A DNA stretch of 64,000 bases from Candidatus Enterousia sp. (GCA_045587125.1 JAZNBN010000016.1:32728-96727), one strand, 5' to 3'; numbered from the stretch's first letter, positions 30,436 through 47,756 are shown. Made by a program: numbers and translations. The notes: generated by a model not told the origin, from the letters alone.

Positions 30436-33400
30436 TTAATTGGCATCGCACCATATCTCTGCTTCTTGTATTCCTGTGACATAACAATAACCATCGTTAT
30501 GCCATATTGGTTGGATGCCAAGTGTTTCATAGAGTTCATAGCATGTATCATAGGTGTCTGCCAAAGAGAAATACATTGTTTTTCCAGAATTGTATAAATC
30601 TTGGACATCTGTCGCTGTCATCCAATTTGTTGAAATATTTTGGTTCGTATAAAAACACTTTGAGGTGCCGGTTGAATTGGATTTGTAACACCAATATGCC
30701 TTGTTAGAGCAATCGTTATCTATATTGTATGTAGTGTTAGGAGTTACTATCGTAAGGTTTTGACTGTCTGGTAATTTAAATGTCTGACCAATTGTTGCTG
30801 TAGTGTTTGGTGTAGAAACATAGTTTACTGTATAGTAAGTGGGTAATACAAAATTTACAGTAAATGAAGATGGTGTCCATACTACATTCCATGTAGTGCT
30901 TGTGGTTGGTTGACAATCTGTATCCTGTACGTATGCGTATGGGTTGGTTATACAGGTTGTTCCACTGACGGCATCTTCTACATATTTGTATGTATAATCG
31001 CTGCCAGGGTTAATAGAGGATAACATACCGGTAAATCTCGAAGTGTCCAGTTTGGTTGAACAAGTTTCTTCTGTATATAGTTGAGAGTTTTTATAGTGTA
31101 TAGTTCCGGACTTTCCGCCGGATAATTCGGTGCCATCGGAATTTGTGTGTTTCAGTGTAATTGGAACACATGGTTCTGTTGGGGTGTCTGGTGTATATTT
31201 TCCATACCATTTTGTAGCAGATGTTGGATTACATTCTGTTATATTTGCTGTAACTAATTTACCTTGATGATCTATACATTGTGTTTTAAAATCATTCGCA
31301 GAATAATATCCGTCAAATGTAAAACCTGTTTCTGGTGTCGGACCGGTTATGTACAAAGATGAATCAGTACAAGCGGCATCGGTATATAAAACAGTTGAAT
31401 CAACTGAGCTTTTGTATACTGTTTGTGTGCCACCTGAACCTGTTCCGACAACTAAATTGATCATTATACATTGTTCAGGTTCACTTGGTGTTTCAGGTTC
31501 CTGTTTTGTATACTGTGCATACCATGTTGTTGTGCCTGTTATACTGCAAGAAGAAGTTCTGATTTGATTATCTGTACACTGTGTTCCGCCAGATTTGCTT
31601 GTATAATATCCATTAAATGTATAACTTGTTTTTTGTGAATTGTAATGATAGAAATTACCACTGTTAGTGGCTGTTGAACAAGATGAGTCTGTGTAGAGTC
31701 CTGTTGCTCCAACTTTTGCATATAATGTGTTGTATCTTGAAAGTGTACCATCATTAGGGTCTAATGTAATTGCTACACATTTTGGTTGGGAAATGGTGCA
31801 ACCACCTGCGCCATCCGATTCGTAACCTGTACCGCATGTACATGTGCCGTTGGTGTATGTGCCACCGGTACTGGTGCAATTATATTCGGCTTGGGTTACG
31901 CATTTACCATTGGTGTTGGCTATTTTGCCTGTGCCACTACAATCGCAAGTGTTGCTTGACCATTCGCCGCCTGTACTTTCACAATTTTGTGCAGTTTCAT
32001 TGTATGCCATATCTATCCAAGCCTTGATGGCGGCAGGATTTGGTTCTTTGGTTGCATCACCATTTACAGACATACATGTTATAATCTGGGAACGACATGC
32101 ATTGATTGCAGCATTTGAGTATGTTCCATTGTTTGTGCCGTAATTGTTTTTACCCAAACATGTTTCTATATCAACCATACAATTGCCCGCATAATCAGCC
32201 AAGATTTCGTCTTGGGCGGCCTTAATCTGGGTCATTGTACGTGCCAAGTATTCTTTTACAACCATGTTGTCATGTTGATATGCACCGTTATCATCAAATG
32301 TGTACATTTGGCATTTGTTTAATACTGCTGAACACATACCATAATTGCGATTGCCGTCTATGTAACCAATCTTGGCCATTAGATATTCAGACATAATCGA
32401 TGATGTGTCAGATGGTTTGGTGTTTTTCTTGACGGTTGCATTTATATATTCAGCCAAAGATCCGTCATTGTTCCATGCGTTTACTTCTGTGTCACCGTCA
32501 TCATAATTCCATGTTTTATAAAGACCACTTTGTGTCAAATCTGATGTTGGGGCATCAATTGATGTACTTTCCACCGCCAATCCAGGCATAGAACCCGCAA
32601 CAATTTCACCGTTTACAATATATTTGCCGGTTGGGTCCAGACAGTTTTCATAATCACTGCCACATACGAATTCATCCTGCATACATGAATCCAATGCGTT
32701 CACACAACCACGCAGGTCATATGAGTTTTTCTGTTGCGAAACCATCAAACGTGCTTTTTGCAATACAGTTTTTGCATTGCGTACTGTATTATTCATGTTG
32801 TCGTTGGCTTCGTTCAAACTGCGTTCGTATGCAATACATTGTTTATCAATTTCCATATCATACGCATTTGTGATAACAGATATATCAACACCTTGATTTT
32901 GACATGTGTTTAATACAGATGCCTTGCATCGTGTAGATGCCGTTTTATATAACTGTTCACCACGTTGGTTGCTGATACTGTTTGTGTTTGTATTGTTTGA
33001 ACCAAATATCGCACTTAAATCAAAACCTGTATCGCCAATATTAAAATCAAGTAACCCAGACAAATCAAATGACATGCCAGTATCAGTAGATGTCGCTGTT
33101 CCTGATTTGACCTCTACTATTAAATCACGGATTGAATCCAAACTGTTTTTTAATTGGCTGTTATCAGTTGTTGCCTGCATTTGGATTTCAGCCTCGGTCT
33201 GACTGAACAATGTTTCAATTTCGTCCGCGGTCAACCCAATATATTGAATTTGTTGCGCGACATCCTGCAAGGCTTCGTTTGCTTCCTTTAAAGCCTTTTC
33301 TGTTTTTTCGTAATTTTTAATATTTTTTGAACATGTGCAACGACCTTGATTATCGTCCAAAACGTTACAATAATTATCCATACATGATGTATATTGTGCT

Positions 33401-33957
33401 TTGCAGTAATCAGTCATTTGTGTCAAACTATCCATTTGACTGATAGTTGTTGCCTGGTCTGCTGTATTTGTTGTTGCTGTTGTTGCGACAGATCCAGCCC
33501 GCGCCATAACCCCACTGCGTACCCCGGCACGCGCATTTGTTATCGCAGCACGTCCAGTATTTGTTGTTGAATTATTCGTCGTGTTGCGGCGTACTGTTGT
33601 TGCAACAGGTGCGCCTTTGGTTGCCGTTCTGGCAGTTGTGGCTGTGCGTTGCGCCACACGTGCATTGTTTGTAGTTGCGGTACGTGGTGATGTTGTGGTC
33701 GCTTCACGGTTTTTTACACCTGTACGTGCCTGTGTTGCATTACGGGACGTTGCGACTGTGCGTGCATTAACATTTCGTGCAGATGGGTCAGATGAACCAC
33801 GAGCGCTGGGGGATACACGTGCGGCCCCACGACCCGTTGCCCCAGAACGTGATGCAACACTGGATGGTTGTGCAATCGGTTGTACTGTATCCCGAACTGT
33901 ATCTGCAAATGCAGGTAACACCAACAGGCCACTTAATACCGCAACAAATCGTTTCAT
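30436..33957 (-). CDS. Giant secreted protein, paralogue 1 (1173 aa): signal peptide, Arg/Thr/Ala-rich region, conserved Cys-containing core, EGF-like Cys knots, GYTF(D/N)GYY repeats
   Basis: Start set to ATG 33957 (AGGGAGA SD; MKRFVAVLSGLLVLPAFA). The core from MTDYCKAQYTSCMDNYCNVLDDNQGRCTCSKN to AQNCESTGGEWS is nearly identical to 45285-47756. At least three C-terminal modules of the type CxxITLxxxDGT...LYTDxxC...GYTFxGYY...TQC...TxWY. Confidence 0.8.
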   Translation of the reverse strand: MKRFVAVLSGLLVLPAFADTVRDTVQPIAQPSSVASRSGATGRGAARVSPSARGSSDPSARNVNARTVATSRNATQARTGVKNREATTTSPRTATTNNARVAQRTATTARTATKGAPVATTVRRNTTNNSTTNTGRAAITNARAGVRSGVMARAGSVATTATTNTADQATTISQMDSLTQMTDYCKAQYTSCMDNYCNVLDDNQGRCTCSKNIKNYEKTEKALKEANEALQDVAQQIQYIGLTADEIETLFSQTEAEIQMQATTDNSQLKNSLDSIRDLIVEVKSGTATSTDTGMSFDLSGLLDFNIGDTGFDLSAIFGSNNTNTNSISNQRGEQLYKTASTRCKASVLNTCQNQGVDISVITNAYDMEIDKQCIAYERSLNEANDNMNNTVRNAKTVLQKARLMVSQQKNSYDLRGCVNALDSCMQDEFVCGSDYENCLDPTGKYIVNGEIVAGSMPGLAVESTSIDAPTSDLTQSGLYKTWNYDDGDTEVNAWNNDGSLAEYINATVKKNTKPSDTSSIMSEYLMAKIGYIDGNRNYGMCSAVLNKCQMYTFDDNGAYQHDNMVVKEYLARTMTQIKAAQDEILADYAGNCMVDIETCLGKNNYGTNNGTYSNAAINACRSQIITCMSVNGDATKEPNPAAIKAWIDMAYNETAQNCESTGGEWSSNTCDCSGTGKIANTNGKCVTQAEYNCTSTGGTYTNGTCTCGTGYESDGAGGCTISQPKCVAITLDPNDGTLSRYNTLYAKVGATGLYTDSSCSTATNSGNFYHYNSQKTSYTFNGYYTSKSGGTQCTDNQIRTSSCSITGTTTWYAQYTKQEPETPSEPEQCIMINLVVGTGSGGTQTVYKSSVDSTVLYTDAACTDSSLYITGPTPETGFTFDGYYSANDFKTQCIDHQGKLVTANITECNPTSATKWYGKYTPDTPTEPCVPITLKHTNSDGTELSGGKSGTIHYKNSQLYTEETCSTKLDTSRFTGMLSSINPGSDYTYKYVEDAVSGTTCITNPYAYVQDTDCQPTTSTTWNVVWTPSSFTVNFVLPTYYTVNYVSTPNTTATIGQTFKLPDSQNLTIVTPNTTYNIDNDCSNKAYWCYKSNSTGTSKCFYTNQNISTNWMTATDVQDLYNSGKTMYFSLADTYDTCYELYETLGIQPIWHNDGYCYVTGIQEAEIWCDAN
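31970..33417 (-). repeat. Inverted-repeat arm A (conserved core of the giant paralogues)
   Basis: Reverse complement matches 45934-47384. In the ~170 nt I aligned by hand (32741-32910 vs about 46440-46609) there are only 3 mismatches. Confidence 0.8.
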
Positions 33958-33983
33958 CGAATATCTCCCTTTCATTAAAATGA

Positions 33984-34012
33984 ATTTTATCAAAAACAGG
34001 GATTTTAAACAA
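33984..34012 (-). promoter_or_regulatory. Candidate promoter of giant paralogue 1
   Basis: Minus strand reads TTGTTT-N17-TAAAAT with a TG extension (TGATAAAAT). The same -10 context occurs at 45249-45257. Confidence 0.45.
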
Positions 34013-34021
34013 GGTGTTTTT

Positions 34022-35095
34022 TTAATTTTCTTTAAATAAATTCGCCGGATTAATCGCATTATTTCCGCGTCGTACTTCCAGATACATTTCTGGTTTGTCT
34101 GGATTCATGCGACCAACGGGTTCACCGGCCAATACTTCTTGGTCCAACATAACGTCAATATTTCCAAGATTGGTCATAACTGTATTGTATCCATTTTTGT
34201 GTGACATAATTATAACACGACCAAAACCACGGAAACTGTCTGCGAATTTTACAACGCCATCTGCCGGTGCCATAACCAACGCATCTCCACGTGTGCGAAT
34301 ACGCCAACCGTCTGATTTTAGCCCCAATGCAGTTTTTTCTCCAAATTTTACGACAATTCTTCCGCGTACCGGCAGGTTTAATTTACGTCTGGAAAAACGT
34401 GCGTCTGCGGACATCTCAGAACTGCCCACGCCGGCGGACAATTCAGAAATACTTTTTGCACGTTCAGACAAATCACGTAATTTCTTTTGTGTTTCAGAAT
34501 GCTTTGTTTTTAATTTTTTATTTTGTGCACTGCGTGTTTTTAATAATTCATCTAATTTACGTTTTTCACGGTTGTATTTTTTAGCAGTTCTGTCTAATTT
34601 TTCTTTTTCAATTGCCCGTTCTTCGCGTATTTTGTTCAGTTTTTTTATTTGTTCTTTGGCTTTGTCAATTTCTGTATTCAAATTTTCAGATGTTCCCATT
34701 AACATCGCAGAAGTTAAAACGTAATCACGCATATTTTTACTGTCAAAATTTGGATGTGATGCAATGAATAATACACTGGCACTGGCATCTGCGATACGTG
34801 ATTTGTTGGAATTCATATCTTGGGTGATTTTATCACGTTGGGCATCTAATTCGGCAATTTTTTTTGCCATTTCTGCACGTTTTTCTTCTAAATCACTGAC
34901 TTTATCTGCGGCTTTGACCAATTGTTTTTTTGTTTGGTTTACTTCGCGTTCAGACGTTTCAACCTGTTGTTCTAATTTTTTTGTCTGTTGTTCAGTCTGT
35001 TTGATTTGTGCATTTATTTTAGATAATTCATTGCCGCCCAGTCCAGGACTGGTAAAGATGCATAACAAAGAAAAAATTGTAAATATCTTCTTCAT
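34022..35095 (-). CDS. EnvC-like coiled-coil protein with degenerate LytM (M23) domain
   Basis: Signal peptide, about 200 aa of K/E-rich coiled coil, and a C-terminal M23 fold (GWRIRTRGDALVMAPADGVVKFA...GRVIIMSHKNGYNTVM). The HxH motif is replaced (EMYLEVRRG). The start overlaps the tyrS stop (TAATG). Confidence 0.7.
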   Translation of the reverse strand: MKKIFTIFSLLCIFTSPGLGGNELSKINAQIKQTEQQTKKLEQQVETSEREVNQTKKQLVKAADKVSDLEEKRAEMAKKIAELDAQRDKITQDMNSNKSRIADASASVLFIASHPNFDSKNMRDYVLTSAMLMGTSENLNTEIDKAKEQIKKLNKIREERAIEKEKLDRTAKKYNREKRKLDELLKTRSAQNKKLKTKHSETQKKLRDLSERAKSISELSAGVGSSEMSADARFSRRKLNLPVRGRIVVKFGEKTALGLKSDGWRIRTRGDALVMAPADGVVKFADSFRGFGRVIIMSHKNGYNTVMTNLGNIDVMLDQEVLAGEPVGRMNPDKPEMYLEVRRGNNAINPANLFKEN

Positions 35096-36309
35096 TATTT
35101 TGCAATTACTTTCAAGAATACCTTTTTGCCTTTTTGAACCATAAATTCATCAGATTTTTCTATGACGTATTTTGGGTCTGTTATTTTGTTGCCATCAATT
35201 TGAATTCCGCCTTGTTCAACATTTCTGCGGGCCTCTGATTTAGAGGTAAATAAACCTGTTTCAACCAGAAAATCCAATATGCCCATATTGTCTGACATTT
35301 TTATTTCAACATTTGGTGCATTGTCCAGATTTTTTCCACCACCAAACAGTGCGTCTGATGTTTGTTGTGCCTGTGTTGCAGCATCTGTACCATGTGCAAT
35401 TTCTGTGGCGGCAAATGCCAACACGCGTTTTGCTTGATTTAATTCTGCCCCTTGTAACGCAGACAGGCGTGCAATTTCATCCAGTGGTATTTCAGTAAAT
35501 ATTTTCAAGAATTTTTCAACCAAATCATCAGGTGTATTGCGGAAATACTGATAGTATTCATATGGCGATGTTTTATCTTCATTTACCCATACTGCATTTC
35601 CAGCAGACTTTCCAATTTTATTTCCGTTTGAATCAGTAATCAAAGATGTTGATAAAACAAATACTTCTTTGCCCATTTTTTTGCGAACCAATTCAATACC
35701 CATAATTGCATTGCCCCATTGGTCTGCCCCGCACAGTTGTAATATGCAGTTGTGCTGTTTATAAAGGGTTAAAAAATCCACCGCTTGGAACGTCATATAA
35801 TTAAATTCCAAGAATGTCATACCGTTATCCAGACGGCGTTTAACAGAATCCATGGATAACATGCGTGGAACTGTAAAATCTGTACCAAAATCGCGCAAGA
35901 AATCCAAGTGACTGTATCCAGACATCCAATCGTAATTATCAACCATAATTGCACCAGATTCTGAATTGTCGAATTTCAAAAACTTTGAAAAAGATTTTTT
36001 TAATCCATTAACATTTTTTTCCAAGATTTCATCGGTCATCATTGGTCGACCTGTATCACGACCGGATGGGTCACCAATACGTCCAGTTGCCCCACCAACC
36101 AATGCGATTGGTCTATGTCCGTATTTTTGTAACCAACGCATCATCATCACAGGCACCAAATGTCCAACATGTAATGAATCAGCCGTCGGGTCAGAACCCA
36201 AATATGCCGTAATTTTACCGGCGTTTAATGCGTCGATTATACCGTCCATATTTGAAGTCTGATTTATAAAACCACGTGCGTTTAATTCTTGTAACAATTC
36301 ATTCTGCAT
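35095..36309 (-). CDS. tyrS: Tyrosine--tRNA ligase
   Basis: HIGH-type motif (SLHVGHL), KMSKS-type motif (KIGKS) and a C-terminal S4 domain. 404 aa. Confidence 0.92.
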   Translation of the reverse strand: MQNELLQELNARGFINQTSNMDGIIDALNAGKITAYLGSDPTADSLHVGHLVPVMMMRWLQKYGHRPIALVGGATGRIGDPSGRDTGRPMMTDEILEKNVNGLKKSFSKFLKFDNSESGAIMVDNYDWMSGYSHLDFLRDFGTDFTVPRMLSMDSVKRRLDNGMTFLEFNYMTFQAVDFLTLYKQHNCILQLCGADQWGNAIMGIELVRKKMGKEVFVLSTSLITDSNGNKIGKSAGNAVWVNEDKTSPYEYYQYFRNTPDDLVEKFLKIFTEIPLDEIARLSALQGAELNQAKRVLAFAATEIAHGTDAATQAQQTSDALFGGGKNLDNAPNVEIKMSDNMGILDFLVETGLFTSKSEARRNVEQGGIQIDGNKITDPKYVIEKSDEFMVQKGKKVFLKVIAK

Positions 36310-36381
36310 ACTTTATCCCTTAATATTACTAAGTTGATATTATCATGTATTTTAATTGTATGCAACCAAACGGACAAATAA

Positions 36382-38121: not shown

Positions 38122-38254
38122 GTTTTTTTTCTTGTTATCTTTGTTTTTTTGCACGGTTTTACCCCTGGTTATATTAGGTATTTTATCATAAAAATCTTGC
38201 AAAGTATTGTTTTTTATAGGTATAATCCTATCACAGAAAGAAAGGAAAATACAT

Positions 38255-38854: not shown

Positions 38855-38856
38855 AT

Positions 38857-39512: not shown

Positions 39513-39556
39513 GTAATGATATTTTCATAAAAGCACAAATAAATCAATCTGATTAT

Positions 39557-39586
39557 AAAAAAAACCGCCAATTGGCGGTTTTTTTA
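39557..39586 (-). terminator. Rho-independent terminator after the IHF-like gene
   Basis: AAAAAAAACCGCC-AATT-GGCGGTTTTTTT. Confidence 0.75.
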
Positions 39587-39874
39587 TTTTTTGTTTGCCA
39601 CGCGTTCGCGGAATTCATTGCTAGGGCGGAAAGACGCAACGCGTCGTGCAGAAATGACTGCGGATGCACCCGTCTTTGGGTTGCGTCCCATACGTGCATT
39701 TTTTTCCAGAATTTTGAAAGTTCCAAAACCTGCGAATTTAACTTCTTCACCATGAATCAAAGATTCTGTTATTTCTTCAAAAATAATATCAACCAATTTA
39801 TAAGAATCTGCAGATGTTAAACCAAATCGTTCACGTAATCTGTCTGCAAAATCACTGCGTGTTATTGTTGCCAT
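39584..39874 (-). CDS. ihfA: Integration host factor alpha-like / HU-family DNA-binding protein
   Basis: 96 aa. GFGTFKILEKNARMGRNPKTGASAVISARRVASFRPS matches the IHF/HU arm motif. The ARRV..F.PS context favours IHF-alpha. Confidence 0.7.
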   Translation of the reverse strand: MATITRSDFADRLRERFGLTSADSYKLVDIIFEEITESLIHGEEVKFAGFGTFKILEKNARMGRNPKTGASAVISARRVASFRPSNEFRERVANKK

Positions 39875-39910
39875 GTTTTTTCTTCCTATGCTTTCTTATT
39901 AACCCTGCAT

Positions 39911-39939
39911 ATTATACAGACAGTAAACAAAACTTGCAA
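39911..39939 (-). promoter_or_regulatory. Candidate promoter of the IHF-like gene
   Basis: Minus strand reads TTGCAA-N17-TATAAT. Confidence 0.5.
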
Positions 39940-39953
39940 TACTTAAATAAAAT

Positions 39954-39983
39954 AAAAAAAACGGGGATTTTATCCCGTTTTTT
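39954..39983 (-). terminator. Rho-independent terminator after the 655-aa gene
   Basis: ACGGGG-ATTTTA-TCCCGT flanked by A8 and T6. Confidence 0.65.
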
Positions 39984-41949
39984 ACATTTGGTTTAAAAAA
40001 TCTTGACGCAATACTTCAATTTCTAATTTAAATTGATTTAATTTCTTTAAAGCACGTTCAAATTTTTGCTTTTGTTCCAATACGTTACGCAGTTCCGCTG
40101 TGTGTTCCAAAGATTTTTCTGTTTCTGTTTCTGCGGTCAGTAATTTAACAATGTCGCAATATGAACGATTTAATTCATTTAATTTTACGGTCAATGTTGC
40201 ATGTAAAGAATCTACGTCTTTCCATTCAAACGGGGTGCTTTCTGGTTCTGATACATTGTCTGGTTCTGTCATAGATTCAATTATACAGTCCGATATACTT
40301 GTAACTATGTCTGATGCAATGGCATCAGCAATTTTTCTGTATTCATATTTTTCTGAACGCAGTAATTCTTTGGCTGTGTCCAGTAATTCTATTTGAATGT
40401 TATATTTTTCAACCCTGATGTTAGATAAATCCAATGGTTTTTGTTCAATAGTAAATCTGTGGCGTACGCGTTTATTTACCGGTGTTTCAACAGTTTTTGT
40501 TTCTTGAACTTTTGCGGGTTCTGCGATTTTTTGTGTTGTTGGAACTTCTGTGTTCGGTAAAGATTTTTTCACATTTGGCACAACGGGTATTGTTGTTTCT
40601 TTTGGTTGAACTTTTGCCACGGTTTCTTTTTGTTTTTTCAAAGCCTTTTCCACAGACGTAATCAGTTTACTGACCAATATTGTATCCTGTGTGTTTATAC
40701 CAGATAAATTATCAATACAAATTGCGTGGAAATATTCTTGGCTAAGTTCATGATCTGCAAAATATTCAGACGCAATGAATGTATCGCCTTTCATATACCA
40801 TATTGTACGTGGTCTTTCGTCTGTTTTATCATAACGTTGTGTTAAACATTTTGAATTTTTCAGAAACACATTGATAGATTTTCTGGTTGTTCCGTCTTGA
40901 ATATAGCAAACAGAATCCCCCTGGGTGGAAATGGGTTGAATATTAATTTGTTCTATATCACGCAGAAAACATAATTGTTTTGCATAATTTGTTTTACCAC
41001 AGTGCTTTTTTATTAAATCCCAAATGTTTTTCTTGATATATTTTTTAATAACAACATGCTGAACTTCTTTTGTACCGACATACAGTTTTGGTTGTTCAAC
41101 AGTTTGCTTCGGTTGTTTTTTTGACTCTTTTTTTACTTTTTCTGTTTGTTGTTTGTTTGCTCTGTCATTGGCTTTTTCAATGATAAAGTTTATTATTTTT
41201 TGAACGTCGTTACTGTGAATACAATCAATTGCAATTCCATCATATGGGCGTAACATTTTTTGTACAGTTACGTCAATATAAGATGCCTTGGATTTAGCGG
41301 CTCTTATTTCACGTTTGATTTTATCTTCGGGTATTAAATTTGTGATTGCGGGGTTTTTAACGCATATTTCAAAAATTTCATCCATAGACAACCAATCGTC
41401 TGTTTTTGAAGACAATTGCGTTTTTTCTTTTGGTTCGGTTTTTTGTGCTTTTACCTTTTCTGTGACAATCGGTTTTTCTTTTTGTTGTATAATTTCAGAT
41501 AGATATAATTTTTTATCGTCTGTTACCTGTATGTCTGGATATAGTGCAATAAATTGTTTGGCGATTTCTACTTCGTTGTTTTGGTTTTTTATAACGGCGT
41601 TCAAAACAGATGGTCTGACTACAACTTTTGTAACAGTTTTTGGCAGTTTGTTTATTAATACAGACAAATTTCCGATGGAATACAGGCAAATTAATTCTGT
41701 AATACCATTTGGTAAAACAGTGTTTTCTGAAATAGTAAAATCAGAACAATCAAATACGCCTTTTATTATAACGTTGCTAAAATCAGGCAATGGGGCCTTT
41801 TTACCTTTGCCCATATTTACATCTGCATCAATATATAATGGATTTTCAGCACTAAAAATATCCCGTGGTAAATCCAACAGGTCCACATTCATCATATGGT
41901 GGATGTCATCTTGTTTTGTATATCCAATATATTGTGTTGTATTTTTCAT
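39982..41949 (-). CDS. Large orphan protein (655 aa), K/E-rich, no signal peptide
   Basis: ATG 41949 preceded by AAGGAAA. The N-terminal ~150 aa have an LRR-like flavour (VIIKGVFDCSDFTISENTVLPNGITELICLYSIGNLSVLINKLP). Central Lys-rich linkers and a C-terminal predicted coiled coil. No family recognised. Confidence 0.65.
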   Translation of the reverse strand: MKNTTQYIGYTKQDDIHHMMNVDLLDLPRDIFSAENPLYIDADVNMGKGKKAPLPDFSNVIIKGVFDCSDFTISENTVLPNGITELICLYSIGNLSVLINKLPKTVTKVVVRPSVLNAVIKNQNNEVEIAKQFIALYPDIQVTDDKKLYLSEIIQQKEKPIVTEKVKAQKTEPKEKTQLSSKTDDWLSMDEIFEICVKNPAITNLIPEDKIKREIRAAKSKASYIDVTVQKMLRPYDGIAIDCIHSNDVQKIINFIIEKANDRANKQQTEKVKKESKKQPKQTVEQPKLYVGTKEVQHVVIKKYIKKNIWDLIKKHCGKTNYAKQLCFLRDIEQINIQPISTQGDSVCYIQDGTTRKSINVFLKNSKCLTQRYDKTDERPRTIWYMKGDTFIASEYFADHELSQEYFHAICIDNLSGINTQDTILVSKLITSVEKALKKQKETVAKVQPKETTIPVVPNVKKSLPNTEVPTTQKIAEPAKVQETKTVETPVNKRVRHRFTIEQKPLDLSNIRVEKYNIQIELLDTAKELLRSEKYEYRKIADAIASDIVTSISDCIIESMTEPDNVSEPESTPFEWKDVDSLHATLTVKLNELNRSYCDIVKLLTAETETEKSLEHTAELRNVLEQKQKFERALKKLNQFKLEIEVLRQDFLNQM

Positions 41950-42063
41950 CGGTTTTTCCTTATATTTATTATATTATAGTATAAAAATAATATTTGTCAA
42001 CGAAGTATTGCGTATAAAAATATTGAATAAGTATCAGATTTGTTTTATCATCCTATGCGCTGT

Positions 42064-42139
42064 GTCCCCATAGTTCAACAGGATAGAACAAATTCCTCCT
42101 AAGAATTAGATGCAGGTTCAAGTCCTGCTGGGGATGCCA
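42064..42139 (+). tRNA. trnR: tRNA-Arg (anticodon CCT)
   Basis: Hand-folded cloverleaf. Acceptor GTCCCCA/TGGGGAT, D-stem GTTC/GAAC, anticodon stem AATTC/GAATT with loop CTCCTAA, T-arm GCAGG-TTCAAGT-CCTGC, encoded CCA. Confidence 0.88.
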
Positions 42140-42142
42140 GAT

Positions 42143-43078
42143 TTACTTTGATTTTTGTTTGGTCATCACAAATACAATATCTGTCTTTTGTGCGGTTTTG
42201 TCTTGTATGGCACTGGTAATAGGAATATGGGAAAAGTGGTGCACGTACCCATTGTCGGTGCTGATATTTGTTTTTCTTGGTCTTTTATTGTCTATGTCCC
42301 AAACATAATTCCAACATATTATACCGTCATCGTTCAGATTTTTTTGCCCCAGTGGTTTTAAAATATCGTTGTAAAACATGTTTGCTGATTGTTGTGTATC
42401 TGCAATATGTTGATATTGAAATCCGAATATATTGGACAACAATATCAAAGAATATTTTTTGCGTGTTTTCTTTCTAAGGTCTTTGATATCACATCTTATA
42501 AAATTAAAATTATCAGGTACCAGTTTCTGTAATTCTTCATATTTTTTTGGGTCTGAAACATAAGACGGTGTTAACAAAGGTTTTTTATTGTTTTTTAACC
42601 CTGAGATTCGAAACATTTGGTTGTATATATCGTGTTGGTAATACGTATCTAAATACACCTGTAACCCTTCGGAAAAATCGTCAAATATTGGTCGTATAAT
42701 GTCTTTGTTCAGGAAATTTTTTTTATCAAAGAAAAAAGTATAAAAATCTTGATATTCCAATTTTTGTATCATCTTGGTTTTTAATTCCAAGATATATTTT
42801 TGTAAATAATTTATATCAAAAACATCAACATGTTTTGCACCACGCAACAGACATTCAAAAGCATGGTCTCCGGACGAACATACACTTAAAATATTTTGAC
42901 CTTGTATATTCGGAATTTGATTTAAGTATCCGTTGATGTTTTCAGTGGTAAACAAATATGTCGGACCGTTCCAAGAAAAATGGTACGGTTGGTCTTTAAA
43001 GGTCATCAATGCAATATACGTTTTAAATTTATCTATCATGGTAACGTATGAACATATCATAATATACAGGTTTGTCAA
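42143..43078 (-). CDS. DUF3419/BtaA-like SAM-dependent transferase-fold protein
   Basis: NILSVCSSGDHAFECLLRGAKHVDVFDINYLQKYILELK resembles the ItSaGcNaLdyLl...V.aVDlNp.Q..LLELK signature I recall for DUF3419. The start is ambiguous: TTG 43078, ATG 43060 or ATG 43039. Confidence 0.45.
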   Translation of the reverse strand: MTNLYIMICSYVTMIDKFKTYIALMTFKDQPYHFSWNGPTYLFTTENINGYLNQIPNIQGQNILSVCSSGDHAFECLLRGAKHVDVFDINYLQKYILELKTKMIQKLEYQDFYTFFFDKKNFLNKDIIRPIFDDFSEGLQVYLDTYYQHDIYNQMFRISGLKNNKKPLLTPSYVSDPKKYEELQKLVPDNFNFIRCDIKDLRKKTRKKYSLILLSNIFGFQYQHIADTQQSANMFYNDILKPLGQKNLNDDGIICWNYVWDIDNKRPRKTNISTDNGYVHHFSHIPITSAIQDKTAQKTDIVFVMTKQKSK

Positions 43079-43159
43079 TAGGTGTTCTGACCTAAGATTT
43101 TATATTTTACAAACAGAAAAAAATATTTATAATCCCATTTTGTTTAAAAAGGTGTTTGT

Positions 43160-43489
43160 ATGAAGAATAAAGCAGTAAAATTGGGGCTGGTTGCGACTAT
43201 TGTTCCGCATATCTTTTGTTGTGGCATACCAATGTTGTTGGCGGTTGTTGGGTTGATTGCACCGGATATGGCGCACTTTCATTTATTGCCACATTGGCTG
43301 GAACCTTGGTTGTTTGTATTTTCTGGGGTTATGTTAGTTATATCTTGGTATTTAGTTTATCGTGAATGCAGATGTTCATGTTCGCATTGTGGTGGCCTGT
43401 CTTCGCATCGTGTACAAAAGATAGTCTTGGCGGTTATAACGATTGTTTTTATTATCAGTATATTTTTACATATTATTTCACATCATTAA
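43160..43489 (+). CDS. Small 3-TM membrane protein with MerT-like Cys arrangement
   Basis: TM1 carries a CC pair (PHIFCCGIPMLL). The loop between TM2 and TM3 has a Cys cluster (RECRCSCSHCGG). Topology mirrors MerT. No merP/merA/merR nearby. Confidence 0.35.
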   Translation: MKNKAVKLGLVATIVPHIFCCGIPMLLAVVGLIAPDMAHFHLLPHWLEPWLFVFSGVMLVISWYLVYRECRCSCSHCGGLSSHRVQKIVLAVITIVFIISIFLHIISHH

Positions 43490-43514
43490 AAAAATCCCAA
43501 AACGGGATTTTTTT
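43488..43514. terminator. Bidirectional terminator
   Basis: AAAAAATCCC-AAAAC-GGGATTTTTTT. Confidence 0.75.
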
Positions 43515-45102
43515 AAACAAATTTTTCTGGAATCAGATTGCAAATACATTTCCATAATCTGCGCAGTGCGCTGGTATCTGGTGCGTGTGTGTGAATTTGT
43601 GGTTGGATGTCGCCTGGTCTTTTTCCGGTCCAAACGGGATTTCCGTTTCCGTCCAATGTTACATGCCATGATGTTTGTGTGTCTTTTATAATCATATTAC
43701 GCAGTTTTTCTGCAAAATCCCGACTTTCAAAGATTGCGACATTTTCTGTGTTGTAATATGCACTGCGTGGGTCAAGGTTAAAACTGCCAATCCAAGATAT
43801 ATCATCATCAAACACCATTGTTTTGCTGTGCAACACGGAAAAACTGGATTGTTTACGTTCACGATCGTGTTCTTTGCCGCGCAGATTTTCCGCAGATACC
43901 ATAAATTCATAGACGTCGGCGCCTGATTCTATCAATTTTTTTCTGTATTTTTCCCACTTTGCATAAACGGTTGGTGCGTTTGTGGATGCCAATGAATTTG
44001 TTACAATAGTTATGTGTACGCCGGACTTTTCTTCTTGCAAGATATGTTCTAATCCGCCTTGGCCGGGTACAAAATACGCAGCAGACATATAAACAGAATC
44101 AGATGTTTTGTTCCAAAGGTGTTGCAATGCCTTGATAATATCGCCACGATATTGTTCTTTTTCATTCATTGTCATTTCAACTTTTTCAGGTGGGTCGGCC
44201 AAGAATTTTCCGCGTCCCCATGAAAAGTCTAATTTTTTATTTTTGTATTCTTGTTGTGCCATGTTTATGATGTTGTTATACATCAGAACATTTTCTGTTT
44301 TATTTTTGCCAATGTCTTTGAATGATTTTTCCAGTTTTTTAAGTGCTTTTTTAGATTTTGCCTTTGGGAAAACCTCGGCTGGTATTGATAAATGGTGGTT
44401 CCAATATTCGTTAAAGCTGTTTGTGGCAAATTTAGTCATGTCCCCGATAAACAACACGTCTGTGTCTGAAAAATTAGACGCTGTTTCTGGATAGAAATAA
44501 TTACTGCCTACATTTCGACCGCCTGTTATGTATGCGAAATTATCTACGATAAATAATTTGTTATGCATTCTGGAATTCAGTCTATTAAAATCCGTTAAAA
44601 ATTGTGGATAGTACAATATTTTTGTTCTGTTTGGTACCGTGTTAAATATTTTAACTTCTATATTTGGGTGTTGGTTTAATAATGTTACATCAACAATATC
44701 GGATTTGGTCCCGTAATCATCCAACAATATTCGTACCTTGACCCCACGATCTGCAGCATTTTTTAATTCTGCGATTAAAACCTTGGATGAAAAATCGTTA
44801 CTGTATATGTATGTTTGCAGGTCTATGGTTTTTGTTGCCATTCGTGCAAATGCAGATCTTATAACAAAAGCAGACAATCCGTCTTCAATAAGTGTTGCAC
44901 CAGACATATCTGGGTCTGAATTTAATTCTGTTTCGTAAATTTGTGCAATTGGTGTTTTGTATGGGTCGTATACAAAGTCGGTAGATGTAATTTTTGGTGT
45001 GTATTCACTAAGTCTGGGGTCGGATATAGTTGTTGGGACGGTTGTGCATCCCATCAATGGCAAAGAAAAAATCCAAAACGCAACTTTTTTTAATACAGCC
45101 AA
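43513..45102 (-). CDS. Phospholipase D / cardiolipin-synthase-family lipoprotein
   Basis: TTG start with AAGGTGA SD. Lipobox LPLMGC. Two HKD motifs (HNKLFIVDNFAYITGGRN and HSKTMVFDDDISWIGSFN). Confidence 0.8.
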   Translation of the reverse strand: MAVLKKVAFWIFSLPLMGCTTVPTTISDPRLSEYTPKITSTDFVYDPYKTPIAQIYETELNSDPDMSGATLIEDGLSAFVIRSAFARMATKTIDLQTYIYSNDFSSKVLIAELKNAADRGVKVRILLDDYGTKSDIVDVTLLNQHPNIEVKIFNTVPNRTKILYYPQFLTDFNRLNSRMHNKLFIVDNFAYITGGRNVGSNYFYPETASNFSDTDVLFIGDMTKFATNSFNEYWNHHLSIPAEVFPKAKSKKALKKLEKSFKDIGKNKTENVLMYNNIINMAQQEYKNKKLDFSWGRGKFLADPPEKVEMTMNEKEQYRGDIIKALQHLWNKTSDSVYMSAAYFVPGQGGLEHILQEEKSGVHITIVTNSLASTNAPTVYAKWEKYRKKLIESGADVYEFMVSAENLRGKEHDRERKQSSFSVLHSKTMVFDDDISWIGSFNLDPRSAYYNTENVAIFESRDFAEKLRNMIIKDTQTSWHVTLDGNGNPVWTGKRPGDIQPQIHTHAPDTSALRRLWKCICNLIPEKFV

Positions 45103-45228
45103 CTTTATTCACCTTTGTTTATTGTTGCCGATTATAATAAAAAGATATCATAGTATCAAGTAAAATTCATTATATTTTTTAATGATTTAGGAATAAATGT
45201 AAAATAATACATGGGGTGTACTTTTTCG

Positions 45229-45257
45229 TTTGCAACAAATTCAGATATATGATAAAA
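45229..45257 (+). promoter_or_regulatory. Candidate promoter of giant paralogue 2
   Basis: TTGCAA-N17-TAAAAT with a TG extension (TGATAAAAT). Confidence 0.5.
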
Positions 45258-45284
45258 TAATCATAATTGAAAGGGAGATTTCTA

Positions 45285-47756
45285 ATGAAAAGATTTGTTG
45301 CGGTATTAAGTGGTTTATTGACTTTGCCTGCATTTGCGGAGGTTGTGCCGGTTTATTACGATGAAGTAATAGAGTATACAGAAGAAGAAATGCCAACCGA
45401 AGAAGTGGCAGAAACGCCGGCCAAGGTTGTACAACCGGTTTCTCAGCCGTCTAATGTTTCTTCTCGTTCTGGTGTAAACGGTCGTGCCGCATCACGTGTA
45501 TCTCCCAGTGTTCGTGGAACGACAAATACATCTGCACGTAGTGTAAATGCCCGTACGTCCAGTGTGTCTCGTAATGCAACTCAGGCTCGTACAGGGGTTC
45601 AGACACGTGCTGTAAATGCACGTACAACATCTTCACGTGCTGCGACTGTGAATAATTCACGTGTGGCACAACGTAATGCCCGTGCTGCTACAAATACGCC
45701 AACTGCGACTGCTACACGTCGTGGTGTTGCGACAGGTGGTGCAAATACTGCGCGTGCGGGGATTGTTCAAACAGATACTGTAAATGCACCATTGTACACA
45801 GGTCGTGTAAGCACACGTTCTTCTGCGGTTATGGCACGTGCGCCGGTTGTTTCTGCTATAAATAGTACAACCAGTACAACTGCAACAACAGATGCTGTAT
45901 CAACAATTAATCAAATTGATGAATTGGCACAGATGACTGATTACTGCAAAGCGCAATATACATCATGTATGGATAATTATTGTAATGTTCTGGATGATAA
46001 TCAGGGTCGTTGTACATGTTCCAAAAATATTAAAAATTATGAAAAAACAGAAAAAGCTTTAAAAGAAGCAACGGAATCATTGCAAGACGTTGCGCAACAG
46101 ATTCAATATATTGGTTTGACAGGTGACGATATTGAAACATTATTCACCCAGACCGAGGCCGAAATCCAAATGCAGGCGACAACTGATAATACCCAGTTAA
46201 AAAACAGTTTGGATTCAATCCGTGATTTAATAGTAGAGGTTAAAACAGGAACTGCGACATCCAGCGAAACAGGTTTGTCATTTGATTTGTCTGGATTGCT
46301 TGATTTTAATATCAGTGGCACTGGTTTTGATTTGGGTGCAATGTTTGGCACAAATACTGCAAACACTTCCAGTATCAGCAACCAACGTGGCGAACAATTG
46401 TACAAAACTGCATCTGCACGATGCAAGGCATCTGTATTAAACACATGTCAAAATCAAGGTGTTGATATATCTGTTATCACAAATGCGTATGATATGGAAA
46501 TTGATAAGCAGTGTATCGCATACGAACGCAGTTTGAACGAAGCCAACGACAACATGAATAATACAGTACGCAATGCAAAAACTGTATTGCAAAAAGCACG
46601 TTTGATGGTTTCGCAACAAAAGAATGCATATGACCTGCGTGGTTGTGTAAATGCATTGGATTCATGTATGCAAGATGAATTTGTGTGCGGCACAGATTAT
46701 GAAAACTGTCTGGATCCAACCGGTAAATATATTGTAAACGGTGAAATCGTAATGGGTTCTATGCCTGGATTGGCGGTGGACAGTACACCAATTGGTGCAC
46801 CATTATCAGATTTAACACAAAGTGGTCTTTATAAAACATGGAATTACGATGAAGGTAAAATCAACGCATGGTATGGTGATGGTTCTTTGGGTAATTACAT
46901 TAATGCGACTGTAAAGAATGCTCAGTCCGCATCTACATCGTCAACTATGTCTGAATATTTGTTGGCCAAGATTGGTTACATATCAGATGGGCGCAGTTAT
47001 GGTATGTGTTCATCCGTATTAAATAAATGTCAGATGTACACATTTGATAAAAATGGTAACTATCAACATGACAACATGGTTGTAAAAGAATATTTGGCAC
47101 GCACGATGACCCAGATTAAGGCGGCCCAAGATGAAATCTTGGCTGATTATGCGGGTGGTTGTATGATTGATGTTGAAACATGTTTGGGTAAAAACAATTA
47201 CGGCACAAACAATGGTTCTTATTCAAATGCTGCAATCAATGCATGTCGTTCCCAGATTGTAACATGTATGTCTGTAAATGGTGATGCAACCCAGGATCCA
47301 AATCCTGCCACTATCAAGGCTTGGATAGACAAGGCATACAATGAAACTGCACAAAATTGTGAAAGTACAGGCGGCGAATGGTCGAATGGCGCATGTAAAT
47401 GTGGCTCAGGTACGACATTGGGTACAGATGGTAAATGTACATCGGGCTCTGATACATCAGGTGAAACAGAAAATTGTAAGATGGTTGAATTGATCGGCCG
47501 AGATGGAAGTACGGTTGTCAAAACAATGTACAGAAGTGTTGATTCTGCTGCTTCGTTCTATTCAAATGATTCATGTGTTGGCACGACATCTTCGGTTCTG
47601 GTTGGAACAGAAGTTACTGGATTTGTGTTTGACGGATATTACACCACAAAAGATTTTGAAACACAATGTGTAGGAGGTACAGGTACATATAATGATAACG
47701 TTCAATGTGCCCCAACAACTGATACAAAATGGTATGGAAGATGGATTGTAGAATAA
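45285..47756 (+). CDS. Giant secreted protein, paralogue 2 (823 aa)
   Basis: Start ATG 45285 (AAGGGAGA SD; MKRFVAVLSGLLTLPAFA). Arg/Thr/Ser-rich region, the same conserved core as 30436-33957, and a single C-terminal GFVFDGYY...TKWYGRW module. Confidence 0.8.
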   Translation: MKRFVAVLSGLLTLPAFAEVVPVYYDEVIEYTEEEMPTEEVAETPAKVVQPVSQPSNVSSRSGVNGRAASRVSPSVRGTTNTSARSVNARTSSVSRNATQARTGVQTRAVNARTTSSRAATVNNSRVAQRNARAATNTPTATATRRGVATGGANTARAGIVQTDTVNAPLYTGRVSTRSSAVMARAPVVSAINSTTSTTATTDAVSTINQIDELAQMTDYCKAQYTSCMDNYCNVLDDNQGRCTCSKNIKNYEKTEKALKEATESLQDVAQQIQYIGLTGDDIETLFTQTEAEIQMQATTDNTQLKNSLDSIRDLIVEVKTGTATSSETGLSFDLSGLLDFNISGTGFDLGAMFGTNTANTSSISNQRGEQLYKTASARCKASVLNTCQNQGVDISVITNAYDMEIDKQCIAYERSLNEANDNMNNTVRNAKTVLQKARLMVSQQKNAYDLRGCVNALDSCMQDEFVCGTDYENCLDPTGKYIVNGEIVMGSMPGLAVDSTPIGAPLSDLTQSGLYKTWNYDEGKINAWYGDGSLGNYINATVKNAQSASTSSTMSEYLLAKIGYISDGRSYGMCSSVLNKCQMYTFDKNGNYQHDNMVVKEYLARTMTQIKAAQDEILADYAGGCMIDVETCLGKNNYGTNNGSYSNAAINACRSQIVTCMSVNGDATQDPNPATIKAWIDKAYNETAQNCESTGGEWSNGACKCGSGTTLGTDGKCTSGSDTSGETENCKMVELIGRDGSTVVKTMYRSVDSAASFYSNDSCVGTTSSVLVGTEVTGFVFDGYYTTKDFETQCVGGTGTYNDNVQCAPTTDTKWYGRWIVE
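45934..47384 (+). repeat. Inverted-repeat arm B (conserved core of the giant paralogues)
   Basis: See 31970-33417. Spurious mirror ORFs in the track (32906-33202 + and 46103-46444 -) translate almost identically, confirming high nucleotide identity. Confidence 0.8.

What the first reader, a model, noticed from the sequence alone, without database searches (positions are those of the whole stretch)
31970..47384. Near-identical ~1.45-kb inverted repeats inside two divergent giant genes bracket a ~12.5-kb segment, giving a potential invertible region that would swap gene halves
The core of gene 30436-33957 (minus strand) and the core of gene 45285-47756 (plus strand) are reverse complements of each other: 31970-33417 versus 45934-47384. 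In the ~170 nt I aligned base by base (32741-32910 versus about 46440-46609) there are 3 mismatches, including a 60-nt perfect run. In contrast, the N-terminal low-complexity regions and the C-terminal repeat arrays differ strongly. Both promoters and 5' ends lie inside the bracketed segment. Homologous recombination between the arms would therefore invert 33.4-45.9 kb (envC-like, tyrS, PBP, OMP, HD, ihf, the 655-aa orphan, tRNA-Arg, PLD...) and create reciprocal chimeras, with the N-terminus of one gene joined to the C-terminal array of the other. The patchy identity itself indicates ongoing gene conversion.
Basis: partly seen in the sequence, partly recalled or inferred. Interest (0 to 1): 0.7.

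Follow-up and report, generated by a model that had tools for sequence, protein, structure and literature searches.

The report
Inverted paralogous genes exchanging core sequence
Two oppositely oriented copies of a gene for a secreted cysteine-rich protein, in a small-genome gut alphaproteobacterium, share a 1.45-kb core that occasional gene conversion keeps about 88% identical, but related assemblies give no sign that the DNA between them flips, so this looks like an ordinary recombining gene pair rather than a switch.

Summary
The inverted repeat is real: 31959-33411 (-) versus 45939-47382 (+). It is 87.7% identical overall, not near-identical. Only a 202-nt tract is near-perfect (3 mismatches).

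The arms are the central domain of two paralogous genes, A (1173 aa) and B (823 aa). They belong to an unnamed family of secreted Cys-rich proteins from Candidatus Enterousia relatives.

Gene conversion is well supported:
- Core trees group paralogs by species (bootstrap 100%), whereas the N-terminal heads group A orthologs together (100%).
- Core dS is 0.5-0.74 between paralogs and 1.5-1.8 between orthologs.
- The window's A is a strain-specific mosaic.

Inversion by crossing-over in the cores is not supported. Contigs from nine samples of the same species, one spanning both genes, all show the window's orientation, and no reciprocal chimera was seen.

A sister species does carry the segment flipped. 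There the inverted block is about 30437-45195 and includes the whole of gene A. The breakpoints lie at A's 3' end and in the PLD-B spacer, so A' and B' sit in tandem.

The repeat configuration is therefore associated with an evolutionary block inversion. It is not shown to be a switch. Low-frequency flipping cannot be excluded without reads.

The parts
30436..33957 (-). Gene A (1173 aa). It has a signal peptide, an R/T/A/N-rich low-complexity head, a Cys-rich core, a C-terminal array of Listeria-Bacteroides-like repeats and a terminal Cys-rich domain.
   Evidence: ORF and translation. Database copy P0121. Orthologs P0122-P0125. No Pfam or NCBIfam family.
31959..33411 (-). Left arm of the inverted repeat, which is the conserved core domain of gene A.
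   Evidence: 87.7% identical to the B core (1266/1443, 9 gap columns).
45285..47756 (+). Gene B (823 aa). It has the same architecture as A, with a 24-aa acidic insert in the head and a single C-terminal repeat.
   Evidence: ORF and translation. Orthologs P0001-P0006 are 90-98% identical in the core. It keeps the clade-wide divergent adjacency to the PLD gene.
45939..47382 (+). Right arm of the inverted repeat, which is the conserved core domain of gene B.
32732..32933 (-). Near-perfect tract in A. It pairs with 46417-46618 in B: 202 nt, 3 mismatches, exact runs of 91 and 101 nt. This is the best candidate for a recent conversion tract and the only good site for initiating homologous recombination.
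   Evidence: Here A_win is 97-99% identical to B_win but only 90-94% identical to allele A_L084.
46417..46618 (+). Partner in B of the near-perfect tract.
31960..32307 (-). 3' part of the A core plus linker, where the window's A is closer to B alleles (89-95%) than to the other A alleles (62-86%). It is a strain-specific B-like patch.
   Evidence: Sliding identities. Longest concordant runs of polymorphic sites: 38 sites vs B_win and 35 vs B_L082, each reached in 0 of 5000 permutations.
33424..33957 (-). Head of A (signal peptide plus low-complexity region). It is orthologous to the head of A' in the sister species, not to B.
   Evidence: Head tree: A orthologs group together in 100% of bootstraps. 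Identity table.
45285..45926 (+). Head of B with the acidic insert. It is 75% nt identical to B' of the sister species and 61% to A.
33902..34005 (.). Short inverted repeat (pairs with 45237-45340, 104 nt, 75%). It is the shared promoter-proximal/RBS motif and signal-peptide start of the two genes.
   Evidence: I3. Upstream sequences compared.
33958..45284 (.). Bracketed segment. It carries the M23 peptidase, TyrS, a class A PBP, an OMP beta-barrel, a 209-aa ORF, HU/IHF-like, a 655-aa orphan, tRNA-Arg(CCT), DUF3419, a 109-aa ORF and PLD. No recombinase is present.
   Evidence: Pfam, tRNA, and precomputed Pfam on related contigs.
30437..45195 (.). Block that is inverted between this species and its sister species S2. 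It comprises gene A plus the whole segment (about 14.8 kb).
   Evidence: blastn of the S2 composite against the window. S2 1-4226 matches win 26205-30436 (+). S2 4308-15776 matches win 45195-33720 (-). S2 19719-21862 matches win 45222-47332 (+). S2 22897 onward matches win 48049 onward (+).
30407..30432 (.). Bidirectional terminator hairpin that abuts the stop codon of A. The left breakpoint of the inter-species inversion lies here.
45196..45221 (.). Right breakpoint interval of the inter-species inversion, inside the PLD-B spacer.
47691..48036 (+). Decayed extra repeat module downstream of the B stop codon (it contains stops and a frameshift). It is homologous to the intact terminal repeat of allele A_L083.
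   Evidence: tblastn: 49% identity over 79 aa, E = 4e-16. The same remnant is present in L098.

Best explanation
The two arms are the central domain of two paralogous genes, A and B. They belong to an uncharacterised family of secreted Cys-rich proteins in Candidatus Enterousia relatives (order Rs-D84, reduced-genome gut Alphaproteobacteria).

The duplication is older than the split between this species and its sister species. Since then the core, and only the core, has been repeatedly re-homogenised by non-reciprocal homologous recombination (gene conversion). This leaves a mosaic with tracts of roughly 0.2-0.4 kb. The heads and tails have diverged too far to pair and so evolve independently.

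The inverted arrangement is linked to a single evolutionary inversion of a ~14.8-kb block that carries gene A and the housekeeping segment. Its breakpoints are at A's terminator and in the PLD-B spacer. The sister species has the other state, with A' and B' in tandem.

Within the window's species the orientation is fixed at the consensus level. Crossing-over between the arms is physically possible, because exact runs of 91 and 101 nt exist. It is inferred to be rare, given 12% divergence, and it has left no fixed product.

Shown here: the repeat, the mosaic, the tree discordance, the dS contrast, and the synteny in both species. Inferred: the mechanism (RecA-type recombination) and the rarity of crossovers.
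For: (1) Repeat and anatomy.

(2) Concerted evolution:
- Core nt identity is 83-87.5% for A-B within this species and 82.3% for A'-B' within the sister species, but only 74-79% between species.
- NJ bootstrap on the core groups paralogs by species at 100%/100% and A orthologs at 0%. On the heads, A orthologs group at 100% and paralogs by species at 0%.
- Synonymous divergence is 0.50-0.74 between paralogs within a genome and 1.5-1.8 between positional orthologs. Protein-level constraint therefore cannot explain the similarity.

(3) Strain-level mosaic:
- The window's A has 82 A-type and 78 B-type informative core sites. They are clustered (runs test: 0 of 10000 permutations reached the observed value).
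- GENECONV-like runs are significant only for the window's A.
- Allele P0005 (B) carries an A_L084-type patch. P0006 (B) carries an A-type patch. Both linker types occur in both loci.

(4) Fixed orientation: every same-species contig spanning a junction agrees with the window, and L098 spans both genes.

(5) The sister-species inversion has breakpoints outside the repeat. It is seen in contigs from several samples (L087-L090, L094-L097).

(6) No recombinase gene lies within about 10 kb on either side (precomputed Pfam lists).

(7) Precedent: the Salmonella tufA/tufB genes evolve in concert by homologous recombination, and part of those events give inversions (PMC6735719; PMC5485169).
Against: - Consensus assemblies cannot show a minority orientation, and no reads were available. 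Low-frequency flipping is therefore not excluded.
- Only about nine samples of the species were seen.
- The direction of individual tracts (B to A versus divergence or replacement in the other A alleles) cannot be polarised. P0125 (the sister-species A') also has the 'B-type' CESTGG linker, so part of the 3' patch could be ancestral to A.
- Some strain-level mosaicism may come from allelic recombination between strains rather than from intragenomic conversion.
- The patches in the window's A are about 5-11% diverged from every B allele seen, so they are not very recent.
- A ~77-nt inverted stub of the A' 5' region next to PLD in the sister species is not explained by a simple one-step inversion.
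- The polarity of the inversion is unresolved.
Confidence: 0.7

Rival explanations
1. This is an active, homologous-recombination-driven invertible region. Crossovers in the cores flip 33.4-45.9 kb within populations and generate reciprocal chimeras. These shuffle the C-terminal repeat arrays between two expressed surface-protein genes, as a diversity generator.
For: - The topology is right and both 5' ends are internal.
- Exact runs of 91 and 101 nt exceed the usual minimal pairing length for RecA (the threshold is from general knowledge).
- The arms demonstrably interact, since gene conversion occurs.
- In Salmonella tuf, up to half of recombination events are accompanied by inversion (PMC6735719).
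- The opposite orientation of the segment is viable, because the sister species has it.
- Tails are modular and differ between close strains, and a tail module of an A allele survives as a remnant behind B.
Against: - None of about ten junction observations in nine samples is inverted or chimeric.
- A alleles and B alleles each form clean clades over the whole core (bootstrap 100%), so exchange is infrequent.
- At 12% divergence, homologous recombination should be strongly depressed (general knowledge; the role of mismatch repair is described in PMC5485169).
- The patches are non-reciprocal: B_win is 158 B-type to 9 A-type sites.
- The one inversion documented between species used different breakpoints.
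Confidence: 0.12
2. There is no intragenomic exchange. The strain-specific mosaic arises from allelic homologous recombination between co-occurring strains or species, with imported DNA replacing parts of A or B. Core similarity between A and B is coincidental to that.
For: - Tails and linkers differ sharply among strains whose flanks are 97-100% identical (B_win, B_L080, B_L098). This is typical of imported alleles.
- Some patches in the window's A are about 5-11% diverged from all B alleles seen.
Against: - Allelic import cannot explain why A and B are each other's closest relatives in the core in two different species, while their heads follow orthology.
- P0005 carries a patch matching the A allele type of its own strain group.
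Confidence: 0.1
3. The core similarity reflects only strong purifying selection on an old duplicate, or a recent independent duplication in each species, with no gene conversion.
For: dN/dS in the core is low (0.13), and many residues are invariant across the family.
Against: - Synonymous divergence between paralogs (0.50-0.74) is 2-3.5 times lower than between orthologs (1.5-1.8).
- Independent duplications are contradicted by several shared features of A and A'. These are the position just downstream of the M23 gene, the A-type head (100% bootstrap) and the orthologous tail modules.
Confidence: 0.04
4. The repeat or its mosaic is an assembly artefact of a metagenome-assembled contig, such as a collapsed or chimeric path between strains.
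For: - The window comes from an uncultured organism. The database copy of gene A is recorded on a 162,875-bp contig.
- Exact shared runs of 91-101 nt could mislead small-k assemblers.
Against: The same two-gene inverted arrangement is assembled independently in other samples with different assemblers. One 55-kb contig spans both genes.
Confidence: 0.02

Closest known systems
tufA/tufB of Salmonella enterica (concerted evolution of inverted paralogs by homologous recombination, with associated inversions)
   Same: Both cases have two paralogous genes in inverted orientation that exchange sequence non-reciprocally and therefore evolve in concert. A crossover between them would invert the interval (PMC6735719; PMC5485169).
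   Different: - The tuf genes differ at 12 of 1185 nt, whereas the arms here are 12% diverged.
- The tuf genes are homologous over their full length, while here only the central third to half of each gene pairs.
- The tuf interval is 761 kb across the origin, whereas here it is 12.5 kb.
- tuf inversions were observed experimentally, but none was observed here.
Campylobacter fetus sap locus
   Same: Both have oppositely oriented homologous genes for surface proteins bracketing an invertible segment. Recombination occurs in a conserved part of the coding sequence and exchanges variable 3' parts.
   Different: - In sap, one promoter sits on the invertible element and serves several silent cassettes, and the conserved region is the 5' end.
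- Here both genes keep their own 5' regions, the conserved part is central, and only two copies lie in the window.
- No inversion was detected here.
Site-specific invertible switches and shufflons (Hin/Gin, Bacteroides invertases, Mycoplasma vsa/vpma)
   Same: Both involve inverted repeats flanking a segment next to surface-protein genes (vsa is described in PMC4534519).
   Different: - There is no recombinase gene within about 10 kb.
- The repeats are 1.45 kb of diverged coding sequence rather than short conserved crossover sites.
- A single orientation is seen in all assemblies.
Outer-membrane protein paralogs of Helicobacter pylori (babA/babB, sabA/sabB) and pilE/pilS of Neisseria (gene conversion among surface-protein paralogs; bab/sab from own knowledge, pil in PMC4534519)
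   Same: Both show mosaic alleles generated by non-reciprocal exchange between paralogs that share conserved segments and differ in variable segments.
   Different: No silent promoterless cassettes were seen here. Only two loci are involved, and the function and surface exposure of the proteins are unproven.
Listeria-Bacteroides repeat (Flg_new, PF09479) proteins
   Same: The C-terminal arrays of A-type genes are built of this kind of repeat. The sister-species ortholog P0125 passes the Pfam threshold (34.2 bits against a cut-off of 27). Two other window genes carry the domain.
   Different: The window's own A and B tails do not reach the threshold. The conserved core has no Pfam, NCBIfam, PDB-sequence or fold match.

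Membership tests
Concerted evolution by gene conversion between paralogs | In the exchanged region, paralogs group by genome rather than by orthology, while flanking regions follow orthology. | tested here: met
   Core: paralogs group by species at 100%/100% bootstrap and A orthologs at 0%. Head: A orthologs group at 100%.
Concerted evolution by gene conversion between paralogs | Synonymous divergence between paralogs is lower than between orthologs. | tested here: met
   dS is 0.50, 0.74 and 0.67 within genomes, against 1.48-1.77 between species.
Concerted evolution by gene conversion between paralogs | Discrete tracts: clustered concordant polymorphic sites beyond the permutation expectation. 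| tested here: met
   Runs of 38 and 35 concordant polymorphic sites were each reached in 0 of 5000 permutations. A runs test on informative sites gave 0 of 10000. The signal is significant only for the window's A allele, and tract direction is not polarised.
Homologous-recombination inversion between inverted paralogs (tuf type) | Inverted homologous repeats long enough for RecA pairing. | tested here: met
   The arms are 1.45 kb. Twenty exact runs are at least 20 nt long, and the longest are 101 and 91 nt.
Homologous-recombination inversion between inverted paralogs (tuf type) | Both orientations of the interval, or reciprocal chimeric genes with swapped flanks, are observed. | tested here: not met
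   All same-species junction-spanning contigs have the window's orientation. The sister-species inversion has breakpoints outside the arms. Minority orientations are not testable without reads.
Homologous-recombination inversion between inverted paralogs (tuf type) | The organism has the recombination machinery (RecA, RecFOR/RecBCD or AddAB) and a known mismatch-repair status. | not tested
   Only the window was available. The window was not screened for these genes, and the rest of the genome was not searched.
Site-specific invertible switch / shufflon | A dedicated serine or tyrosine recombinase is encoded at or near the element. | tested here: not met
   No recombinase family appears among the called genes within about 10 kb on either side in related contigs, or in the segment itself.
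Site-specific invertible switch / shufflon | Short, highly conserved inverted crossover sites at the exact boundaries. | tested here: not met
   The repeats are 1.45 kb of coding sequence at 87.7% identity. The only other inverted repeat at the boundaries is the 104-nt, 75% 5' region.
Campylobacter fetus sap-type antigenic variation | A single promoter on the invertible segment serves alternative promoterless cassettes. | tested here: not met
   Both genes have their own start, RBS and a conserved upstream motif. Only two copies lie in the window.
Listeria-Bacteroides repeat proteins (Pfam PF09479) | The Pfam gathering threshold is reached. | tested here: inconclusive
   The window's A and B tails give no hit. 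The ortholog P0125 scores 34.2 bits against a cut-off of 27.

The most novel reading that the evidence does not exclude
In living populations of this Enterousia species the arms do cross over at low frequency. This flips the 12.5-kb housekeeping segment and creates reciprocal chimeras that re-assort heads and C-terminal repeat arrays between two expressed secreted proteins. It would be a recombinase-free variation system resembling Campylobacter fetus sap, in a bacterium with a genome under 1 Mb. The gene-conversion tracts seen here would be its non-crossover by-products.
Probability: 0.12. Interest if true: 0.6.

Novelty: new member of a known kind. Interest (0 to 1): 0.35.

Why it matters
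Candidatus Enterousia and its order Rs-D84 are uncultured gut bacteria with genomes under 1 Mb and an unknown lifestyle (PMC12306168). A family of large secreted Cys-rich proteins has a recombining conserved core and hypervariable heads and tails. It also sits at a recurrent synteny breakpoint. That makes it a plausible interface with a host or partner cell and a reasonable target for first experiments.

For genome evolution, the locus is a clean natural example of domain-restricted concerted evolution. The same process operates on an inverted pair in one species and on a tandem pair in its sister.

For the scan, the lesson is that long inverted repeats in divergently oriented paralogs need not be switches. 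Orientation in relatives and the position of the breakpoints decide the question.

Tried and rejected
- Exact look-ups of the window's own A, B and TyrS proteins found nothing on record. Relatives were reached through homolog ids instead.
- The 10-kb flank limit meant that loci centred on B stop just short of A, and the reverse. This was solved with PLD-centred loci.
- Pfam, NCBIfam and PDB-sequence searches gave no family for A, B, the 655-aa ORF or the 209-aa ORF. The weak FTA4 hit is below threshold and was rejected as coiled-coil noise.
- The AlphaFold2 model of B residues 201-823 was mediocre (pLDDT 64, pTM 0.40). Foldseek against the PDB gave only generic helical bundles with E > 0.7, so no functional inference was drawn.
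- GC skew was considered as a clock for the inversion and rejected. Skew follows the coding strand everywhere in the window.
- I first read the SPAdes contig L091 (exactly PLD..M23, with 98-nt inverted termini) as evidence for a third gene copy next to PLD in the sister species. Longer contigs show only a ~77-nt stub there.
- I looked for inverted repeats flanking the p109-HU block, which occurs in both orientations in rumen relatives, and found none.
- An early note of '193 nt with 1 mismatch' was wrong. It is corrected to 202 nt with 3 mismatches.
- The CESTGG-type linker in the window's A was first scored as B-derived. It is also present in the sister-species A', so its polarity is left open.

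Full report
**1. The observation**

The repeat finder recovers the inverted repeat as three collinear pieces. These are 32494-33483/45867-46856 (990 nt, 88%), 32359-32406/46935-46982 (48 nt, 88%) and 31958-32349/46992-47383 (392 nt, 91%). A weaker 104-nt repeat (75%) covers the two gene starts.

The arms lie inside ORFs 30436-33957(-) and 45285-47756(+). These ORFs are transcribed away from each other, with their 5' ends facing inward.

A codon alignment gives 1266/1443 identical positions (87.7%) and 9 gap columns over A 33411-31959 versus B 45939-47382. Twenty exact runs are at least 20 nt long, and the longest are 101 and 91 nt.

The whole near-perfect tract is 202 nt (A 32933-32732, B 46417-46618). 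Outside it, 60-nt windows range from 65% to 98%.

The repeat is therefore real and homologous. It is 'near-identical' only over about 0.2 kb.

**2. What the genes are**

Both proteins have the same layout: a signal peptide (MKRFVAVLSGLL.LPAFA), an R/T/S/A/N-rich low-complexity head, a ~480-aa core with many conserved cysteines, and a variable C-terminal part. B has a 24-aa acidic insert in the head and one C-terminal repeat. A has several repeats and a terminal Cys-rich domain.

Neither Pfam nor NCBIfam nor PDB sequences match the core. An AlphaFold2 model is mostly long helices followed by a beta-rich tail, but confidence is low (pLDDT 64), and Foldseek finds nothing below E = 0.7.

The tails are Listeria-Bacteroides-type repeats. 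The sister-species ortholog P0125 passes the Pfam threshold, while the window's own tails do not.

Relatives come from MAGs labelled Candidatus Enterousia or unclassified Alphaproteobacteria from animal and human guts. Enterousia belongs to order Rs-D84, whose members have genomes under 1 Mb (PMC12306168). An exhaustive HMMER search finds 593 cluster representatives. They are 620-2338 aa long, and in most full-length members the core lies about 130-320 residues from the N-terminus. Only two copies lie in the window.

**3. Orientation in the same species**

Contigs carrying near-identical orthologs were fetched from nine samples.

- On the B side, L080, L081, L082, L098, L099 and L100 read PLD(-) | B(+) | fabZ(-) lpxD(-) nusA(+) wherever the sequence reaches.
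- On the A side, L083, L084, L085 and L098 read M23 | A | 129-aa ORF, mraZ, kinase-like gene, 252-aa ORF, rpsA.
- L098 is a 55-kb contig that spans fabZ, B, the whole segment and the start of A.

The contigs fall into two strain groups: flank proteins are 97-100% identical to the window in one group and 91-97% in the other.

None is inverted. No gene combines an A head with a fabZ flank or a B head with an mraZ flank. No recombinase gene is present in these about 40 kb. Consensus assemblies cannot exclude a minority orientation.

**4. Orientation in relatives**

A sister species, here called S2, has flank proteins 92-97% identical to the window and flank DNA 87-91% identical. Its gene order is:

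rpsA, 248-aa ORF, kinase-like, mraZ(-), 113-aa ORF(+) | PLD(+) ... tyrS(+) M23(+) A'(+, 1344 aa) | B'(+, 980 aa) fabZ(-) lpxD(-) nusA(+)

This order is seen in contigs from several samples.

blastn against the window shows collinear outer flanks and one inverted block, window 30437-45195. The breakpoints lie at A's terminator/stop codon and within 45196-45221 of the PLD-B spacer. In S2, A' and B' are therefore adjacent direct repeats. Relative to S2, the window has gene A flipped together with the segment.

This is an inversion of the region, and it shows that the opposite orientation of the housekeeping genes is viable. It is not the product of a crossover inside the cores. That product would leave one chimeric gene on each side.

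S2 also keeps a ~77-nt inverted copy of the A' upstream region and first five codons next to PLD. A one-step model does not explain this stub.

The next species out (L001, core 80% identical) has M23 ... PLD(-) X(+) fabZ(-) like the window. However, a different Cys-rich gene sits where A would be. The polarity of the inversion therefore stays open.

Across 79 species-level loci, PLD(-)|X(+) is conserved in 57. The 3' neighbour of X varies (p109, HU, 129-aa ORF, mraZ, fabZ). Seven loci have tandem pairs, and a downstream p109-HU block occurs in both orientations. The 3' side of this gene is a recurrent synteny breakpoint.

**5. Gene conversion**

Core nucleotide identity is 83-87.5% between A and B within the window's species and 82.3% between A' and B' in S2. 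It is only 74-79% between the species, for orthologous and non-orthologous pairs alike.

NJ trees with bootstrap put paralogs together by species in the core (100% and 100%; A orthologs together 0%). The heads put A, its alleles and A' together (100%).

A and A' also share their position directly downstream of the M23 gene and recognisable tail modules. The duplication therefore predates the species split.

Synonymous divergence is 0.50-0.74 between paralogs of one genome and 1.5-1.8 between species. This rules out protein-level constraint as the cause. The core has therefore been homogenised after speciation in both lineages, one with inverted copies and one with tandem copies.

At strain level the window's A is a mosaic.

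- It matches B better than other A alleles in codon columns 390-449 (A 32937-32760) and 600-719 (A 32307-31960).
- Informative sites are clustered, and permutation tests are significant only for this allele.
- Patches in the other direction exist in B alleles P0005 and P0006. Both linker types occur at both loci.
- Over the whole core, A alleles and B alleles still form separate clades (100%). Exchange is therefore occasional, not rampant.
- Some mosaicism may be allelic import between strains, and the polarity of individual tracts is uncertain.

**6. Mechanism and comparison**

The best-supported picture is domain-restricted concerted evolution of two old paralogs by homologous recombination, on a locus that has undergone at least one block inversion between sister species.

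The closest well-studied analogue is Salmonella tufA/tufB, which are inverted paralogs evolving in concert. There, up to half of recombination events are accompanied by inversion, and the inversion is costly (PMC6735719). Mismatch repair shapes the conversion tracts (PMC5485169).

The present pair differs in three ways. It is 12% diverged rather than about 1%. It pairs only in the middle of the genes. It encodes variable secreted proteins.

It fails the tests for a site-specific switch, having no recombinase and no short crossover sites. It also fails the tests for a C. fetus sap-type system, having no single mobile promoter and no silent cassettes.

**7. Verdict**

The finding is a new member of a known kind and of moderate-to-low interest.

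The residual novel reading is low-frequency inversion through the cores that re-assorts tails. It needs read-level data to test.

Noticed in passing
window 47691-48036: Downstream of the B stop codon lies a decayed extra repeat module with stops and a frameshift. It is homologous (49% over 79 aa, E = 4e-16) to the intact last repeat of an A allele from another strain (A_L083). B therefore once had a longer tail, and tail modules are shared between the two loci.
   Followed up: partly
L087 9954-10035 and the S2 composite ~4227-4307 (L094 ~4227-4307); L091 both ends: In the sister species a ~77-nt inverted copy of the 'M23 stop to A' start' spacer plus the first five codons of A' sits between the 113-aa ORF's terminator and the PLD promoter. 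The PLD..M23 segment is therefore flanked there by short inverted repeats. One SPAdes contig (L091) is exactly this segment with 98-nt inverted termini. Its origin, and whether it recombines, are unknown.
   Followed up: partly
window 39982-41949 (-): The 655-aa orphan ORF evolves far faster than its neighbours. It is 93% identical in the closest strain, 66% in the second strain group and 41% in the sister species, whereas the adjacent HU-like gene stays at 97-98%. It has no Pfam or NCBIfam match. The neighbouring DUF3419 gene is also unusually variable (79-95% in the same species, 50% in the sister species).
   Followed up: partly
L098 7680-7760 (gene B of another strain): In one strain, B has an in-frame stop codon in the linker just after the core (a 696-aa product). 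An intact B_win-type repeat still follows in frame. The C-terminal repeat of B is therefore dispensable, or the gene is decaying, in that strain.
   Followed up: partly
L001 1-1190 (-): The next-closest species has a different secreted Cys-rich gene (MKKNLFLTTVLLAGFVAPAFADDATTPDKK...) at the position downstream of the M23 gene that A occupies in the window. No similarity to A was detected there.
   Followed up: no
window 38241-38308 and 45271-45338: The start of the OMP beta-barrel gene and the start of B share a 68-nt direct repeat (75%). It covers the RBS and the signal peptide, which ends in ...LPAFA. This suggests a common export-signal cassette among envelope genes of this organism.
   Followed up: no
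window 24417-25559 (+) and 53942-55321 (+): Two further genes on either side of the locus end in a Listeria-Bacteroides repeat domain (Pfam PF09479, 27.2 and 30.2 bits against a cut-off of 27). This repeat type is therefore used by several secreted proteins in the window.
   Followed up: partly
L022/L024/L028 versus L026/L027/L034 and others (rumen relatives), about 2-8 kb downstream of the family gene: A block containing the 109-aa ORF and the HU-like gene occurs in both orientations among related rumen species (20 loci one way, 11 the other). No flanking inverted repeat was found in the two loci examined.
   Followed up: partly
window 30407-30432: A perfect bidirectional terminator hairpin (AAAAAATCCCC-AAAA-GGGGATTTTTT) lies 3 nt from the stop codon of A. 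It serves the convergent 129-aa ORF as well, and it coincides with the left breakpoint of the inter-species inversion.
   Followed up: yes
window 36382-38340 (-) versus 38207-38854 (+): The longest PBP ORF (652 aa) overlaps the start of the OMP gene by about 130 nt. Relatives have the PBP called at 590 aa, so the real start is probably an internal ATG.
   Followed up: no
L024 15707-15843: A hairpin-forming array of TTAGTG-like hexamer repeats lies just downstream of the HU-like gene in a rumen relative.
   Followed up: no
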